Shown: in pieces, positions 3,001 through 15,000 of the stretch
How positions within the stretch are numbered: position 1 is the stretch's first letter
How the letters are laid out: each line of letters starts with the position of its first letter
Assembly (NCBI GenBank): GCA_016178595.1
Contig: JACOSY010000053.1
Location: forward strand, 114 to 64,113
Origin: Ignavibacteria bacterium
GTDB taxonomy: Bacteria; Bacteroidota; Ignavibacteria; UBA10030; SZUA-254
Direction: 5' to 3'
DNA length: 64,000 nucleotides
Position numbers: made by a program

Positions 3001-6000
3001 CGCGGGATCCGGGATAATGTCCTACAACCCTCTGAGGTGCGCAAGGCCGAAAAGCCGATCATTCTGGATGGTGAACGCATTCAGCGGAGTGATCGACGTG
3101 AATCAGTACGACCCGGTCCAACAGATAGACGGGAAAGTATTGTGCCTCCTAAACGAAAAGATGTTCGACCGCAGGATGAATTGAGACGAGAGGTAACACC
3201 ACCACCCGCTGAACAACGATATAACAGGCCACAACCGAAGGAAGACCGCGAAGCACAGCGACGAGATGAAACGAGAAAAATACAGCGGCGCAATATGGAA
3301 CAATCCAACCGCGAGCCGTCACGCACGCCGGAACGAGGGCTCGAGCACCGCTCGCAAGACCAGCATAGAGAGAATGATCGCCCTGCAATCGAACGACGAG
3401 ATGGACGAGGGCGCGTGCAAGATCGGGGGCATGGCGAATCACGAACACGAGACCGACGGCCACGGTAACCGATACGATGCGCTACGAAGAAGGGCGACCG
3501 ATAAGGGATGTCGGTCGCCTTTGTATTTTAGAAATTCAACCAATAATTCACCTTCAGCAAGAATACATTAGACGGTGAACTGCGAAATGTATCTTTGAAA
3601 TCGTCACCGAAAGATGTAAAGTAGTTTCCTTTCCGATCACCACGTGCCTGTGACCAAACCAGGTACAGAGTACTTCCCGGCAGGTATTCCCACCGAAGAA
3701 CCAGATTTCCGTTCAGAGATTGTTTGTTGAAGTCCGGCTCACCGGCGTACGCTTCGGGGATAAATTCGGACGGGCTCACTAATCTCCGAAAGTTCTCGTA
3801 GTGCCCCTTCGCCAAAAAGACTTGACCGTAGAACTGGAGCGTCAAGTCACGTAAGAACGTTAAGGTTCCTCGAACGATGAAATCGTACTGGTCCGTACTC
3901 CGATCCCCGAAGATGGCAAAGCCATTCTCACTTGCCGCCCACGCCTCCTGATCCCGTACACGCTGATATTCAGCATTAAAGTCCCATTCCATCCATGAGA
4001 AGGGTTTAGTCGTGACTCCAAACTCCGTCGCCGCTCCGCGCTTTCGCCTGTCATCAAATGCAAATCGTTGACCGAGCTTGAATATTATTTCGTTGCGTGG
4101 ATCGGTAAACACGTAGGTGCTCATCTGGTAGCCCGTCGGCTTCCGGTACAAGCCGTTTCCGCGCGACTCATATTGATCGTAGAGTCCTATGTCGGCATCG
4201 GCGCTGGCTGTCATGCTCCAGTAGTTCGCAAAAAGAAGACTCCCATTCATGTGTAATTGTCTTGCAATATTCGCTCCTTCGAAGTTGAACCGGGTATGGA
4301 AAAATCCGCCGACAGTGTAATTCCGCACCACCGCCGCAGGCACGTCTTCCTTGTATGTGAGACTGGCAACGCTACCGAAATCGTCAGGGCTAAAAAAGAA
4401 TCCAACATCGTTAATGTAATACTTCGGTGAAGTGTAGTCTGCACTCAACGACCACAGCCAGTGTTCCGCTGCAATCCTTGCAAACTGAATCTTCCCGGCA
4501 GAGCCCGTGATCCGTTCATTTGCCGCATTGGTTGTGTGAGACAGTGCCAGAAAACCATTGAGCGAGTATATATTCTGATCGAAGTTCAGCGTCCAGTCGT
4601 ATCCATTCGTAAATGCCGGATACCGAGTATCTTTTACAGTCGACGTGAGGATCATGCCGACATTTGAATTATTGAGAAAATCTTTCTTGAGCCGAAGGAT
4701 GGAATAGTGTGCTAGCGGCTCAAGGACTTGTTCCGATTTCTGCCTCGTGCTATCGACTACGATCGCTTTCTCCTCTTCTGTGAATGCTTGCAACACACCG
4801 ATGGAAAGTCCATCATTAGTCTTGCCGCTAATCTTAGCCGCACCGAGGATAGTTACATTCTGTGGCACATCAAGAATATGACCTCCATCGGGCACAGACA
4901 CTTCGTCCGGTTTGATCGCGCGGCCGATGCGTCGAGAGTAAAACATACCTGGGCCAAAATCACCTCCGAACGTTGTGAAACGAATAATTTGCGTTCCCTC
5001 AATAAAGAACGGTCTTTTCTCAGGATAAAACGTTTCAAAGGTTGAAAGATTCAACACAGTTGGATCCGCTTCAACCTGACCGAAGTCGGGATTGAACGTC
5101 GCATCGATGGTAAAATTGCTTGAGAGTCCGTACTTCAAGTCGAGACCCGCGTTTCCCCGAAATTTCTCTCTCCGATCCTGAAAGACAGTTGCCGGATCGT
5201 AACTCTGCTTACTGGTTACGAAAGGAAGCAACTCGAAAGGTTGCGGATCGGGAAGTCTCCGGAGACCGACGAGATGTCCATAGCGAGAGATGAATCCACT
5301 TTGACTCTTGGGCGTAAAGGCCCATCGCTCGCTCTCTTGTTTGCGGCTGATATACCGAAGAAAATTGATCCCCCAGGTATTATCAGCCGTATCTGTACCT
5401 GCGTTTCGGTAACGCAATATGCGGAATGGAATTTTCACCTCGGCAGTCCAGCCTTCGCTCGTGATACTTGTCTGCAAATCCCATACAGGATCCCATGAAT
5501 CGTCCTCACGGTTCGCATCGTCGTATTGGAGCTTATCGATTTTCACGCCGGCGGCATTGAACGTAAACTCATACCCCGTCTGGTGATCATGATAGGAATC
5601 GATACGGATTGACGCCTCGTCGGACTCGATTTCATCGTCCCGGCGAGTAAGGCGTGCAACGATTTTCTCAGGCTCAGAATCATAGAACGTGCAACCGAAG
5701 TAGAGCGCCTCATCATCATAGAGGACTCGGATCTCCGAGCGTTCTGAAGCAGGCCTCCCTTCCTCGGGATCGCGCTGGATAAAGTCAGTGGCAGATGTTG
5801 CCTGCTTCCAGACAGCATCATCGAGAATGCCATCGATGCGCGGTGGAGTTGTAATCCTGACCGCAGTAACGGTTCGTGGGTTGTCGCCTGCAAGCGAACT
5901 CGCAGCCGCTGCAAAGAACACTGATAGAAAAACAAGTAGTCGTTTCACGGTGATCGTGTGGAATTGTAAGAATGCGAATGGAATTCAGTGGCAGGAAAAT

Positions 6001-12000: not shown

Positions 12001-15000
12001 ATTGAGACAGATCATCGGGTGTATCAAGTCGCTTGAAGCCCGTGTATTGCCCTTTGTCGAGGAATACTTGCGTAAAGAATTGCAGACTGACATTCCGACG
12101 GAACGTGATAATCCCTCGAAAGGACAAATCGTACTCGTCGATATCACGGTCGCCGAAGACATTGCGTCCATCAGCCGTATAGTGATGCAACGGCCACGCC
12201 TCTTCATTGCGTGTACGCCCAATGGTGAGATTTGGCGAGAACTCCATCCACGTATTTGGCCGGAGCGTCAATCCCAAAATAGAGTAGAGGAATTGAAGTC
12301 CCTTCGCTGAATTCTGATACCCTCCCGAGAGGGAAAGGATTACAGGATGGCGAATATCGGTTTGGAGCTTCGCCCGGAATTGATTGCCTTCCGGTCGACG
12401 GTAAAGCCCAACGATGCCGCGATTCTCATCGTCGTATGCCGTAAAGTCATGGATGAAATTTAGTTGAAGCGACCAGAAGTTTCGGAACTGAAAAATTGTT
12501 TCAAGCTCGGCTTGCTTCTGCGTGCCGGCTCCATCCCAATTCCACCGGGACGTTCCATCGATCGTCAAATTGAATCGACGGAAAGGCTCGGGTGCAAAAT
12601 CTTCTTTGTACGTCACCTGCAGATACCCGCCGTGCTCACGGGGAAGATTATAGAAACCGAGATCGCTGATCGAGAAATCTCGCGTCGCAAAATCGTAGAT
12701 CGCTCCGACAATCCAATGCGCGTCTTCGATTTTACCGAGCGCGAGTTTTCCAGCGGATCCCGCGACACGCGAGTCCGACCATCGCCGCGGCGGCGCGTTC
12801 GATCCGGCAAGATAGCCGTCAAGAGCATACGTTCCGTCGAACAAGCGCAGGTTCCAGTCGACTCCCCCCGACTGCGCAGGCAGGATGCTTTCCTCGTTGA
12901 ACTCTCCCGTCGCCATCAGGCCGACGTAAGAGTTTTCACCGAAGTCTTGCCTGATTCGAGCAACGGTATAGTTTGCGCTTGGTTCGAAGAGAACGGCCGG
13001 GTTTCGGTGGCCGGTGAGATCTTCTTCAATTCCTTCTTCGCGATCCGTCAACGCAGAGATGAAACCGAGTGAAAAACCGCCGTCGGTTTTCCCTGTAAAT
13101 TTGGCGGCGCCAAGAATCGTGGTCACGAGAGGGTTCTGCACAAGATTGTATCCGGAGTCGGGCAATCCTGCGAGTGAAGCGAGCGTCGGTCGCCTGCCGA
13201 TACGACGCGAGTAAAAAAGATAGAGCGGACGATTGTCGAATGCGTTGCCGAACGAAAAGATCGGTGCTCCTTCGAGAAAGAGTGGCCGCTTCTCGGGGTA
13301 GAACGTTTCAAAGACGGTAAGATTGAGAACGGCTTGATCGACCTCCACTTGTCCGAAGTCCGGGTTCAGCGCAACGTCCAACGTGAAATTGTTCGTGATG
13401 CCATACTTCAGATCCAGTCCGAGTGAACTCTTGTATTCTTCCCTGAGATCGAAAGGCGTTGGCTGTGCAAAGTAATTAGCTTTCTGCACCGCGTATGGCA
13501 GCACGTCGAGGTGCAAGGGAGGATGGATATTGCGGATGCCGGATACGTGACCCATCTTGGAGACAGATGAGATGACGCCGGCCGGAGTTTCTTTCCGCGG
13601 CACCATGACCCACTCATCGGTCTCCTGCTTGCGAGCGATGTAGCGTCGGAAGTTTATTCCCCACACATATTCACTGTCTTGCGGCGAGAACCGCAGGGCA
13701 CTGAAGGGAATCCGGAACTCACCCGACCAACCTTCATTGGTGACCTTCGCGTCAAAGTCCCAGACAGCATCCCACTGTACGTCATAGACGCGTCCATCTT
13801 CCGACAGAATGCCATCGGCCTGGATGCCGGAGACCGTTCCACTAAAAAGAAAAGCAGTGCTGTGGTCATGATACGAATCGATGATGACAGAGAAACGATC
13901 TGACTGCCCCGTACGATCACGTCGCGTCAATTGCTGAACGATGTTGCCCGGCTCAGAATCGTAACACAGCACTCCCACATACAGGGCATTGTCGTCGTAG
14001 AGAACATGAACGACCGTGCGTTCAGTCGAAGGCGATCCCTCCTCTGGATCAAATTGCTGAAACCCCGTCACCGGTACAGTCAACTGCCATTCTCGTTCGC
14101 CCAGATTGCCGTCGATTCGAGGAGCGGACGTAATTCGAGTTGCGACAATGCTCTTGGTGGATGTTCCTCCCAGAAGTGTAGTGACAACGAGAAAACAGAC
14201 AATCCCGATGAGGCGTATGTATTTGAACACTATCCTTCCCCTGTAAGCTACCTTGGGAACATAGCAGAATGCCGGATAAAAGTCAAGGCTTTTTCATCCG
14301 AGCAATCAGTCAGCATTGCATTTCTCCTCATTTTTCAAGACATTGGCATCCGAGATGAGCGAACATCCCTCCGTCAATGCCTCGCCGCACGATCCGCAGT
14401 CTATCCAGCGGATGTTTAATGCGATTGCACCCACCTATGATATGCTGAACCACCTTCTCAGCTTTGGCCTCGACATCCGGTGGCGTAAGCGAGCAATTCG
14501 ATCGCTGGAAGAAAAGCGGGGCGGAGCTATTCTGGATATTGCAGCCGGTAGCGGCGACCTCTCGTTGGAGGCATTGAAACTTTCTCCATCGTATCTGGTC
14601 GCCACGGATTTTGCCGAGACGATGCTTCAGGTCTTCCAGAAAAAACTTCGCGGGCAACGCCATTCTCAGATCGTAAATCTCGTGGCATGCGACGCCCTTT
14701 CGCTCCCGTTCGCGGATGAGTCGTTCGATGCAACGATGGTCGCCTTCGGCATCCGCAACTTCGCCGATCGAATCAAATCGCTGCGCGAGATGAGGCGCGT
14801 GCTCAAGCCTCGAGGCCTTTCGCTTATCCTCGAGCTCTCTGCACCAAAAGCCCCATTCGTTTCACAACTCTACAAAGTCTACTCCAGGGTGATGCTGCCA
14901 CTCCTTGGGAAAATTATCTCGAAGCACAACAATGCGTATGCGTACCTGCCCGACTCCATTGCGAAATTTCCGGATCAGCATGAATTTCGTCGGCTTATGG

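What the first reader, a model, noticed from the sequence alone, without database searches (positions are those of the whole stretch)
3528..14230. Mirror-image pair of paralogous cassettes: outer-membrane DUF5916 protein plus ECF sigma, anti-sigma and HEAT-repeat periplasmic partner
Reading along the minus strand, the order is DUF5916-B (14230-11759), sigma, anti-sigma, TPR/HEAT lipoprotein, then sigma, HEAT-containing anti-sigma, DUF4097 adhesin-like protein, then DUF5916-A (5948-3528). The two DUF5916 proteins are clear paralogs: CBM9-like N-terminal domain and a terminal aromatic residue typical of outer-membrane beta-barrels. The two ECF sigma factors are also paralogs. Within each cassette the sigma/anti-sigma/partner genes are translationally coupled (ATGA overlaps at 11019-11022 and 7264-7267). 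Both periplasmic partners carry HEAT repeats. The layout resembles FecA-FecR-FecI cell-surface signalling, but with a non-TonB outer-membrane protein as the presumptive sensor. A DUF5916 to HEAT-repeat anti-sigma to ECF signalling route has not, to my knowledge, been described.
Basis: partly seen in the sequence, partly recalled or inferred. Interest (0 to 1): 0.75.

Follow-up and report, generated by a model that had tools for sequence, protein, structure and literature searches.

The report
ECF sigma cassettes linked to DUF5916 porins
Two stress-type sigma/anti-sigma gene cassettes sit between two copies of an uncharacterised outer-membrane barrel protein (DUF5916), and the pairing recurs across several bacterial phyla, which gives this large unknown family its first functional context, although it is not a FecA-like signalling system by membership.

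Summary
The gene layout is as described. Eight co-directional minus-strand genes run DUF5916-B, sigma-B, anti-sigma-B, TPR/HEAT, sigma-A, HEAT anti-sigma-A, toastrack-like, DUF5916-A.

The link to DUF5916 is not chance:
- 12 of 80 species-level DUF5916 loci carry an ECF sigma within 3.5 kb. All 14 sigma genes are co-directional, and their density is 6.4-fold that of the farther flanks.
- About half of cassette-B loci (10/21) and cassette-A loci (3/6) have an adjacent DUF5916.
- Linked copies fall in at least five DUF5916 clades (Ignavibacteria-like, Balneolaceae, Gemmatimonadales).

Both sigma genes carry a conserved ECF promoter (CAACC-N16-GTCTAA), and the window holds only these two copies. 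Neither DUF5916 gene has it. Both have housekeeping-like promoters, and a strong terminator insulates DUF5916-A. In other lineages the same motif lies directly upstream of solitary DUF5916 genes (10 found, 0.16 expected).

The AlphaFold2 (AF2) model shows a CBM9/DOMON-like domain followed by a barrel of about 26 strands. There is no plug, STN domain or FecR, so membership of FecA-type signalling fails.

Best reading: sigma-E-like envelope-stress modules functionally coupled to DUF5916. Whether DUF5916 is the input or the output is unresolved. I class it as a new variant of a known kind.

The parts
11759..14230 (-). DUF5916-B: outer-membrane beta-barrel protein (823 aa) with a CBM9/DOMON-like N-terminal domain
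   Evidence: Pfam DUF5916 4.5e-82. 40% identical to DUF5916-A over the full length. Signal peptide and C-terminal F. Every orthologue in this clade lies directly upstream of a sigma-B gene.
14258..14286 (-). Housekeeping-type promoter of DUF5916-B (TTGACT-17-TATGTT, with TG extension)
   Evidence: Consensus scan. TTGC/ACTTTT...TATGTTC is conserved upstream of D_B orthologues in L003, L012, L085, L087, L089 and L125. No ECF motif is present.
11613..11642 (-). Autoregulatory ECF promoter of the sigma-B operon (GTCAACC-N16-TGTCTAA)
   Evidence: Conserved upstream of sigma-B in about 45 related loci. One of only two CAAC-N16-19-GTCTAA sites in the 64 kb window.
11019..11612 (-). ECF sigma factor B (ORF as listed; the probable true start is the ATG at 11579, giving 186 aa)
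   Evidence: Sigma70_r2 and r4_2. RpoE/SigW/SigM-like by NCBIfam. The -10 element abuts the ATG at 11612, whereas orthologues start 35-40 nt downstream of it.
10216..11022 (-). Anti-sigma-B: zf-HC2 domain, one transmembrane helix (103-127), periplasmic tail of about 140 aa
   Evidence: zf-HC2 2.6e-6. Hydropathy. ATGA overlap with sigma-B.
9058..10203 (-). Secreted TPR (BamD/CpoB-like) plus HEAT protein, the third gene of cassette B
   Evidence: TPR_6, YfiO and HEAT_2. CpoB TPR 2.6e-8 and alphaRep HEAT matches in PDB sequences. Signal peptide. The trio sigma-B / anti-sigma-B / TPR-HEAT is intact in every locus long enough to show all three genes, among the 80 metagenome loci.
8889..8915 (-). 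Autoregulatory ECF promoter of the sigma-A operon (ACAACC-N16-GGTCTAA)
   Evidence: Conserved upstream of sigma-A orthologues. The second of the two motif copies in the window.
8273..8857 (-). ECF sigma factor A
   Evidence: Sigma70_r2, r4_2 and Sigma70_ECF. Closest solved sigmas are SigH, RpoE and SigW. 34% identical to sigma-B.
7264..8217 (-). Anti-sigma-A: zf-HC2/ASD helices, one transmembrane helix (100-121), a three-strand element, and four periplasmic HEAT repeats (181-316)
6086..7267 (-). Secreted toastrack/LiaG-like beta-helix protein, the third gene of cassette A
   Evidence: NCBIfam LiaG 2e-16, below the cut-off. SGGDI repeats and a signal peptide. Orthologues carry PF13349 DUF4097. 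ATGA overlap with anti-sigma-A.
6030..6056 (-). Intrinsic terminator closing the sigma-A operon
   Evidence: 12-pair stem with 8 GC pairs followed by a T-run; the best terminator in the region. Equivalent hairpin and T-tract upstream of D_A in L003 and L013.
5994..6025 (-). Putative Bacteroidota-type housekeeping promoter of DUF5916-A (TTTG-N20-TATTTTCC)
   Evidence: TCGTATTTTC is conserved upstream of D_A orthologues in L003, L013 and L007. No ECF motif. The promoter assignment itself is an inference.
3528..5948 (-). DUF5916-A: outer-membrane protein (806 aa), with a CBM9/DOMON-like domain (26-230) and a barrel of about 26 strands (238-806)

Best explanation
The region holds two paralogous envelope-stress modules of the sigma-E / sigma-W kind. 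Each consists of an ECF sigma, a single-pass zf-HC2 anti-sigma with a periplasmic domain, and a secreted accessory protein. In cassette B the accessory is a TPR-HEAT protein. In cassette A the anti-sigma itself carries HEAT repeats and the accessory is a toastrack protein. Each module is autoregulated from a CAACC-N16-GTCTAA promoter.

Both modules are functionally coupled to the DUF5916 family of large outer-membrane barrels, two paralogues of which flank them.

Proposed working (inferred): the anti-sigma holds the sigma at the inner membrane. The periplasmic HEAT, TPR and toastrack surfaces act as RseB-like modulators and protein-binding sensors of envelope state. A perturbation triggers proteolysis of the anti-sigma, which frees the sigma to activate its own operon and an envelope quality-control regulon.

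Shown here:
- In related genomes that regulon includes a 2xPDZ protein, and often DUF5916 itself.
- In this genome the two DUF5916 genes are expressed from housekeeping-type promoters.

Inferred: D_B possibly reads through into the sigma-B operon. The two proteins are therefore constitutive partners or clients of the system here, not induced outputs.

This is not a member of the FecA/FecR/FecI family.
For: - Domain content and topology.
- Conserved ECF promoters upstream of both sigma genes, and nowhere else in the 64 kb.
- Forward linkage: 12 of 80 species-representative DUF5916 loci have an ECF sigma within 3.5 kb. All 14 such sigma genes are co-directional, and their density is 6.4-fold that of the 3.5-10 kb flanks, p = 9e-4.
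- Reverse linkage: 10 of 21 fully informative cassette-B loci and 3 of 6 cassette-A loci have an adjacent co-directional DUF5916. It lies upstream in some and downstream in others.
- Linked copies fall in at least 5 DUF5916 clades, including Balneolaceae and Gemmatimonadales, with the same HEAT anti-sigma / toastrack or TPR-HEAT partners.
- ECF motif directly upstream of solitary DUF5916 genes: 10 strict hits against 0.16 expected. By position-weight scan, 14/102 DUF5916 genes against 21/1299 other genes. It is also present in L170 and Balneolaceae.
- The same promoter drives 2xPDZ and M61-PDZ proteins.
- The sigmas resemble RpoE, SigW and SigH most closely.
Against: - No experiment supports any step. 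Activation by proteolysis is pure analogy.
- In this window neither DUF5916 gene has an ECF promoter, and DUF5916-A lies behind a terminator. Co-regulation therefore does not explain the adjacency here, which leaves room for a sensor or partner role (rival 1).
- ECF -35/-10 motifs are generic (AAC...CGTC). In Balneolaceae the DUF5916 promoter (GTAAC-N16-CGTCTAA) differs from the adjacent sigma's own promoter (TGTAACC-N16-GTGTAAC), so the driving sigma may be a different one.
- Half of the cassettes and most DUF5916 genes are unlinked.
- The metagenome sample is biased towards relatives of the query.
Confidence: 0.55

Rival explanations
1. DUF5916 is a dedicated outer-membrane sensor that does not depend on TonB. 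A ligand or stress sensed at the barrel or at the CBM9/DOMON-like domain passes through its periplasm-facing N-terminal domain to the periplasmic HEAT/TPR partner or to the HEAT domain of the anti-sigma, and this releases the ECF sigma. That would be a new kind of cell-surface signalling.
For: - Tight, co-directional, position-shuffled adjacency in several clades.
- An N-terminal domain of about 200 aa ahead of an even-stranded barrel, so most likely periplasmic or lumenal.
- HEAT, TPR and toastrack parts are all periplasmic protein-binding scaffolds.
- In this lineage DUF5916-A and -B have constitutive-type promoters and are not in the sigma regulon, as expected for a standing sensor.
- D_B may be co-transcribed with the sigma-B operon, since no terminator is found in the 147-nt gap.
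- FecA is both sensor and target, so ECF promoters on DUF5916 elsewhere do not argue against this model.
Against: - No STN-like signalling domain, plug or TonB box, and no FecR-type anti-sigma.
- About half of the cassettes work without an adjacent DUF5916, and about 85% of DUF5916 genes have no adjacent cassette.
- The cassettes pair just as readily with a 2xPDZ or a thioredoxin-like protein.
- No interaction evidence of any kind.
- The orientation of the CBM9 domain is inferred, not read from coordinates.
Confidence: 0.25
2. DUF5916 is only an output. It is an ordinary stress-inducible outer-membrane channel that belongs to a general ECF envelope regulon, and it sits next to the regulators solely through operon-style clustering of co-regulated envelope genes. 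It plays no part in signalling.
For: - ECF-type promoters lie directly upstream of DUF5916 in Gemmatimonadota, Melioribacter, Balneolaceae and L170.
- Gaps of 20-200 nt suggest co-transcription where DUF5916 follows the TPR-HEAT gene.
- PDZ and M61-PDZ genes share the motif.
- Precedent: oprF lies next to sigX (ECF102; PMC7826278).
Against: - In this window and its close relatives both DUF5916 genes lack the motif and have conserved housekeeping-type promoters.
- The whole D_B clade lies upstream of the sigma-B promoter.
- D_A lies behind a terminator.
- Adjacency is therefore kept even where co-regulation is absent.
Confidence: 0.13
3. The adjacency reflects inherited synteny or chance in an ECF-rich genome and has no functional meaning.
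For: - The window holds a third ECF sigma (26578-27318), so ECF density is high locally.
- Bacteroidetes average 22.5 ECFs per genome (PMC7826278).
- Many of the sampled loci are related Ignavibacteria-like metagenome-assembled genomes.
Against: - All 14 near sigma genes are co-directional and enriched 6.4-fold over the farther flanks.
- The linkage recurs in at least 5 DUF5916 clades and in other phyla, with changing relative positions.
- Only 6% of Bacteroidetes ECFs have a class I anti-sigma neighbour at all (PMC7406223).
- The ECF motif is enriched upstream of solitary DUF5916 genes.
Confidence: 0.05

Closest known systems
FecA-FecR-FecI cell-surface signalling (TonB-dependent transducer, FecR anti-sigma, FecI-like ECF)
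   Same: - An outer-membrane barrel gene clustered with an ECF sigma and a single-pass anti-sigma that has a periplasmic domain.
- An extra N-terminal domain on the barrel protein.
- In some lineages the barrel gene carries an ECF promoter, as fecA does.
   Different: - No plug, TonB box or STN domain. The barrel has about 26 strands rather than 22, and the N-terminal domain is CBM9/DOMON-like.
- The anti-sigma is zf-HC2 (class I), not FecR.
- The sigmas are RpoE/SigW-like.
- Extra secreted HEAT/TPR or toastrack partners are present.
- In this window the barrel genes are not under the ECF promoter.
Sigma-E / RseA / RseB / DegS envelope-stress pathway (E. coli) and sigma-W / RsiW (B. subtilis)
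   Same: - An RpoE/SigW-like ECF sigma and a class I single-pass anti-sigma encoded immediately downstream.
- A third periplasmic gene in the operon, in the position RseB occupies.
- An autoregulatory promoter of the AAC...GTCTAA type.
- PDZ proteins and outer-membrane proteins in the functional circle.
   Different: - The periplasmic parts are HEAT repeats, a BamD/CpoB-like TPR plus HEAT, or toastrack, not RseB.
- A specific family of outer-membrane proteins (DUF5916) is genomically tied to the module.
- Two paralogous modules lie in tandem.
- No protease is identified.
SigX-CfrX-CmpX-OprF cluster of Pseudomonas aeruginosa (ECF102)
   Same: An ECF sigma operon conserved next to a major outer-membrane porin that is not TonB-dependent. 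The porin is thought to take part in regulating the sigma as well as being linked to it (PMC7826278).
   Different: OprF is an OmpA-type protein unrelated to DUF5916. The partners there are a mechanosensitive channel and CfrX. There are no HEAT, TPR or toastrack proteins and no zf-HC2 anti-sigma.
Toastrack (DUF4097) proteins of envelope-stress loci (LiaG, Lia/Psp context)
   Same: A secreted or membrane-anchored DUF4097 beta-helix protein encoded inside an envelope-stress regulatory operon. The association is recalled from my own knowledge of LiaG in the liaIH-liaGFSR locus.
   Different: Here it is paired with an ECF sigma and a HEAT anti-sigma in a diderm, rather than with a LiaFSR two-component system. 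It also lies next to an outer-membrane barrel.
Bacteroidota SusC-like / anti-sigma / ECF trans-envelope signalling (ECF240, formerly ECF10)
   Same: A system of the FCB-group (Fibrobacteres-Chlorobi-Bacteroidetes). It combines an outer-membrane barrel, a carbohydrate-binding-type domain nearby, an anti-sigma and an ECF sigma.
   Different: Those systems use SusC-type TonB-dependent transducers and FecR-like anti-sigmas inside polysaccharide-utilisation loci. No SusC/SusD genes, glycoside hydrolases or FecR occur here.

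Membership tests
FecA/FecR/FecI-type cell-surface signalling | The outer-membrane component is a TonB-dependent transducer (plug plus 22-strand barrel) with an N-terminal STN signalling domain | tested here: not met
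   [not shown]
FecA/FecR/FecI-type cell-surface signalling | FecR-type anti-sigma (FecR domain with its periplasmic C-terminal domain) | tested here: not met
   Both anti-sigmas are zf-HC2. One carries HEAT_2 and the other an unassigned helical tail.
FecA/FecR/FecI-type cell-surface signalling | Sigma belongs to the FecI-like ECF clade | tested here: inconclusive
   Best NCBIfam and PDB matches are RpoE, SigW, SigM and SigH. ECF Hub group models were not available, so the group was not assigned.
FecA/FecR/FecI-type cell-surface signalling | The transducer gene is transcribed from the cognate ECF promoter | tested here: not met
   No CAAC-N16-19-GTCTAA or looser AAC...GTC/CGT motif lies upstream of either DUF5916 gene in the window. 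The motif is present upstream of DUF5916 in other lineages.
ECF sigma with class I (zf-HC2/ASDI) single-pass anti-sigma | Sigma with only regions 2 and 4, and an anti-sigma gene immediately downstream with an N-terminal zf-HC2/ASD | tested here: met
   Pfam. AF2 helices 3-95 of anti-sigma-A. ATGA overlap in cassette B and a 55-nt gap in cassette A.
ECF sigma with class I (zf-HC2/ASDI) single-pass anti-sigma | One transmembrane helix and an extracytoplasmic C-terminal domain | tested here: met
   Hydropathy gives 99-126 for anti-sigma-A and 103-127 for anti-sigma-B. The AF2 transmembrane helix is 100-121, followed by the HEAT repeats.
ECF sigma with class I (zf-HC2/ASDI) single-pass anti-sigma | Autoregulatory ECF promoter upstream of the sigma gene | tested here: met
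   Conserved in about 45 sigma-B and about 15 sigma-A orthologous loci, and unique in the window.
ECF sigma with class I (zf-HC2/ASDI) single-pass anti-sigma | Activation by regulated proteolysis of the anti-sigma | not testable with these tools
   Needs experiment. No site-1 or site-2 protease gene was identified in the cluster.
DUF5916 (PF19313) outer-membrane proteins | Full-length match to the family model above the gathering score | tested here: met
   315 and 277 bits against a 22.6-bit cut-off, covering profile positions 6-565 and 1-561 of 572.
DUF5916 (PF19313) outer-membrane proteins | Outer-membrane barrel hallmarks: signal peptide, C-terminal aromatic residue, closed beta-barrel | tested here: met
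   [not shown]
Toastrack / DUF4097 (LiaG-like) | Match to PF13349 or the NCBIfam LiaG model above the cut-off | tested here: inconclusive
   The window protein gets no Pfam hit at E<=0.01, and LiaG scores 60 bits against a 285-bit cut-off. Orthologues at the same position carry PF13349.

The most novel reading that the evidence does not exclude
DUF5916 proteins are a new class of outer-membrane signal transducers that do not depend on TonB. Their periplasm-facing CBM9/DOMON-like domain would dock onto periplasmic HEAT/TPR scaffolds, or onto the HEAT domain of the anti-sigma, to control RpoE-like ECF sigmas. This would be a second, independently evolved form of cell-surface signalling, spread across Bacteroidota/Ignavibacteria, Balneolales and Gemmatimonadota.
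Probability: 0.2. Interest if true: 0.8.

Novelty: new variant of a known kind. Interest (0 to 1): 0.55.

Why it matters
DUF5916 is a very large family. It has no solved homologue and no mention in the searchable literature.

This work ties it to three things:
- a defined pair of ECF / anti-sigma / HEAT modules;
- a recognisable ECF promoter;
- an envelope quality-control regulon that includes PDZ proteins.

Together these give the family its first testable functional context. They also provide a promoter motif and cultured organisms (Melioribacter, Balneola) in which to test it. If DUF5916 turns out to be the input, cell-surface signalling would extend beyond TonB-dependent transducers. If it is the output or a monitored client, the locus defines a sigma-E-like stress pathway for under-studied FCB-group and Gemmatimonadota lineages.

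Tried and rejected
- **Shared 9-mer.** CTGAATTCC occurs upstream of both sigma-A and DUF5916-A. At sigma-A it falls in the promoter spacer, and it is not conserved upstream of D_A orthologues. I treat it as chance.
- **ECF promoter on the DUF5916 genes.** I looked for an ECF promoter upstream of DUF5916-A and -B in the window with strict and relaxed patterns. None was found.
- **ECF group assignment.** The supplements of the ECF re-classification paper are not held, and its main text does not describe a HEAT, DUF4097 or CBM9 context. The sigmas were therefore not placed in a numbered ECF group.
- **Literature searches.** Searches for DUF5916, PF19313, 'carbohydrate binding family 9' with outer membrane, and periplasmic HEAT anti-sigma returned nothing. 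The CBM9 / beta-barrel search returned nothing relevant, and the ECF / anti-sigma / HEAT / DUF4097 search returned one unrelated paper.
- **AlphaFold database search.** The afdb50 Foldseek library was unavailable.
- **Rfam.** Only four tRNAs in the window.
- **Complex prediction.** A complex of DUF5916 with the HEAT proteins could not be predicted with the tools offered.
- **Orientation of the CBM9 domain.** Model coordinates are not exposed, so the orientation rests on topology rules.
- **Second upstream element.** An element (G)CAACA-N16-CGTA lies about 25 nt upstream of the sigma-B promoter. I noted it but did not resolve whether it is a housekeeping promoter or a second ECF promoter.

Full report
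**1. Observation**

The window comes from an Ignavibacteriae metagenome-assembled genome. The exact DUF5916-A protein is in NCBI as 'carbohydrate binding family 9 domain-containing protein'.

Pfam and NCBIfam confirm the domains:

| Coordinates | Assignment |
|---|---|
| 3528-5948 | DUF5916-A: CBM9_1 plus DUF5916, 1e-93 |
| 11759-14230 | DUF5916-B: 4.5e-82; CBM9_1 below cut-off |
| 8273-8857, 11019-11612 | two ECF sigmas |
| 7264-8217 | zf-HC2 plus HEAT_2 anti-sigma |
| 10216-11022 | zf-HC2 anti-sigma |
| 9058-10203 | TPR_6/YfiO plus HEAT_2 protein |
| 6086-7267 | LiaG-like protein (sub-threshold; orthologues carry DUF4097) |

- The DUF5916 pair is 40% identical over the full length. The sigmas are 34% identical. 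The anti-sigmas share only the zf-HC2 end.
- The ATGA overlaps are real.
- Hydropathy gives one transmembrane helix in each anti-sigma. It gives N-terminal signal peptides on both DUF5916 proteins, the toastrack-like protein and the TPR/HEAT protein.
- 'Mirror image' holds for gene order only.
- The lipoprotein call for the TPR/HEAT protein is not supported, because its Cys is not conserved.

**2. Structures**

AF2 on DUF5916-A used 60 sequences and gave pLDDT 85.6 and pTM 0.82.
- The model shows a beta-sandwich (26-230) followed by a barrel of about 26 strands (238-806).
- The family's most conserved motif, NPDFGQVEAD...FETFYPEKRPFF, lies in a long low-confidence loop between strands 3 and 4.

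- the barrel to MtrB, which gives the longest alignment at 430 aa.

No PDB sequence homologue exists.

**3. Is the linkage more than chance?**

*Forward test.* A scan of one genome per GTDB species returned 80 DUF5916 loci from Bacteroidota, Ignavibacteria, Gemmatimonadota, Poribacteria, Latescibacterota, Acidobacteriota and Calditrichota.
- I searched six-frame ORFs with the window's proteins and with a sigma HMM.
- Twelve loci have an ECF sigma within 3.5 kb. All 14 such genes are co-directional with DUF5916.
- Their density is 6.4-fold that of the 3.5-10 kb flanks (p = 9e-4).
- The partners recur as well:
  - Balneolaceae have sigma, HEAT anti-sigma and DUF4097 (one or two copies) followed by DUF5916.
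  - A Gemmatimonadales locus has sigma, a TPR/HEAT ORF with a weak anti-sigma-B-like match overlapping its start, and a further HEAT protein, followed by DUF5916.

*Reverse test.* A metagenome scan with the TPR/HEAT protein gave 80 cassette-B loci.
- Of the 21 non-redundant loci informative on both sides, 10 have a directly adjacent co-directional DUF5916. It lies upstream of sigma-B in 6 and downstream of the TPR/HEAT gene in 4.
- For cassette A, six long contigs were chosen through anti-sigma-A homologues. Three have DUF5916 in the cluster.

A neighbour-joining tree places the cassette-linked copies in at least five DUF5916 clades.

For background, Bacteroidetes average 22.5 ECFs per genome (PMC7826278), and only 6% of their ECFs have a class I anti-sigma neighbour (PMC7406223).

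The linkage is therefore real, modular and optional.

**4. Promoters**

- About 45 sigma-B orthologues share TGTCAACC-N16-TGTCTAA upstream of the gene. Sigma-A orthologues share ACAACC-N16-GTCTAA.
- In the 64 kb window CAAC-N16-19-GTCTAA occurs exactly twice, at 11642-11613 and 8915-8889.
- The sigma-B -10 element abuts the annotated ATG, so the true start is probably 11579.
- Neither DUF5916 gene has the motif, even in relaxed form.
  - D_B orthologues conserve a housekeeping-type TTGc/aCTTTT-N-TATGTTC promoter.
  - D_A orthologues conserve a terminator followed by TCGTATTTTC.
- Across 2.1 Mb of loci the strict motif occurs 83 times, where about 16 are expected by chance.
  - 55 lie upstream of sigma genes.
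  - 10 lie directly upstream of DUF5916 genes that have no adjacent sigma, against 0.16 expected. These are in Gemmatimonadota, a Bacteroidetes genome and Melioribacter.
- A position-weight scan gives 14/102 DUF5916 genes against 21/1299 other genes.
- L170 and Balneolaceae also have ECF-type promoters on DUF5916.
- The sigma-B motif also drives a 2xPDZ protein of about 340 aa next to the cassette or next to DUF5916 in eight loci. It drives an M61-PDZ peptidase in one.

**5. Interpretation**

The two cassettes are class I anti-sigma / ECF modules of the RpoE/SigW kind. Their sensing parts are periplasmic HEAT, TPR or toastrack domains. Their regulon has the look of envelope quality control.

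DUF5916 is functionally tied to them. In many lineages it is a transcriptional output. In this lineage it is expressed from housekeeping-like promoters yet remains adjacent, and D_B is possibly co-transcribed with the sigma-B operon.

That pattern fits a partner or client whose state is monitored at least as well as it fits a simple target. The sequence data cannot decide between input and output.

The FecA analogy fails as membership: there is no plug or STN domain, no FecR, and no ECF promoter on the barrel genes here. As a way of working it remains possible, at about 0.2-0.25.

**6. Novelty**

No paper in the library mentions DUF5916 or PF19313. The ECF classification text does not describe this context, and its supplements could not be read.

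The nearest precedents are:
- sigma-E / RseA / RseB;
- SigX-OprF (ECF102);
- toastrack-containing stress loci.

I rate this a new variant of a known kind, with moderate interest of 0.55.

Noticed in passing
window 26000-27318 (-): A third ECF sigma (26578-27318) is followed by a protein with a ChrR-type cupin domain (26000-26581). This looks like a sigma-E/ChrR-style pair unrelated to the DUF5916 cassettes. It shows that local ECF density is high.
   Followed up: partly
window 11577-11612 (-): The annotated sigma-B start (ATG at 11612) directly abuts the -10 element GTCTAA. The in-frame ATG at 11579, preceded by AGAAGGA, matches the spacing seen in orthologues and is the likelier start.
   Followed up: yes
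L147:5576-6598, L035:12740-13753, L111:5089-6189, L117:6248-7318, L138:1115-2167, L168:9483-10415: A protein of about 340 aa with two PDZ domains and no protease domain carries a perfect sigma-B-type promoter. It sits next to cassette B, cassette A or DUF5916 in many related loci. No homologue lies in this window.
   Followed up: partly
L003:7640-9580, L004:7740-9665, L166:8227-10164: A thioredoxin/AhpC-like protein of about 645 aa, with a TPR part, takes the place of cassette A or follows it, between cassette B and DUF5916-A in related genomes. The segment between the two DUF5916 genes is therefore a variable slot.
   Followed up: no
window 2257-3468 (+); L003:12579-13853, L004:13406-14509, L166:10237-11214: A DUF6600 gene lies convergent with DUF5916-A across a bidirectional terminator (3490-3522). 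In L003 and L004 it sits just past DUF5916-A; in L166, where no DUF5916-A follows, it sits just past the thioredoxin-like gene.
   Followed up: no
[not shown]
   Followed up: no
window 4880-5090 (residues 286-356 of DUF5916-A): The most conserved motif of the whole family (NPDFGQVEAD...FETFYPEKRPFFIEG) lies in a long, low-confidence loop between barrel strands 3 and 4. It could be a lumenal constriction or gating loop.
   Followed up: no
window 11650-11690 (-) and the equivalent positions in L004, L012, L087, L089, L092, L129: A second conserved element, (G)CAACA-N16-CGTA(A/C)AA, lies about 25 nt upstream of the sigma-B ECF promoter. It may be a second promoter, either for another ECF sigma or of housekeeping type.
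   Followed up: partly
L007, L022, L046, L061, L081: Tandem pairs of DUF5916 genes occur in Gemmatimonadota, Balneola and a Bacteroidota genome. In L046 each copy has its own ECF-type promoter.
   Followed up: partly
L063:5612-8572: In a Poribacteria genome a 986-aa ORF joins an ECF sigma domain to BNR/Sortilin-type beta-propeller repeats. It lies 1.3 kb upstream of DUF5916 and is followed by a Laminin_G_3 protein. The ORF may be a real fusion or two merged ORFs.
   Followed up: no
window 14316-15077 (+), 15089-16507 (-), 16594-18930 (-): The flanking genes are UbiE/MenG methyltransferase (divergent from DUF5916-B, with a conserved GAAATGCAA element in the shared intergenic region), RlmD, and a 778-aa secreted protein with fn3 and GldG-like parts.
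   Followed up: no
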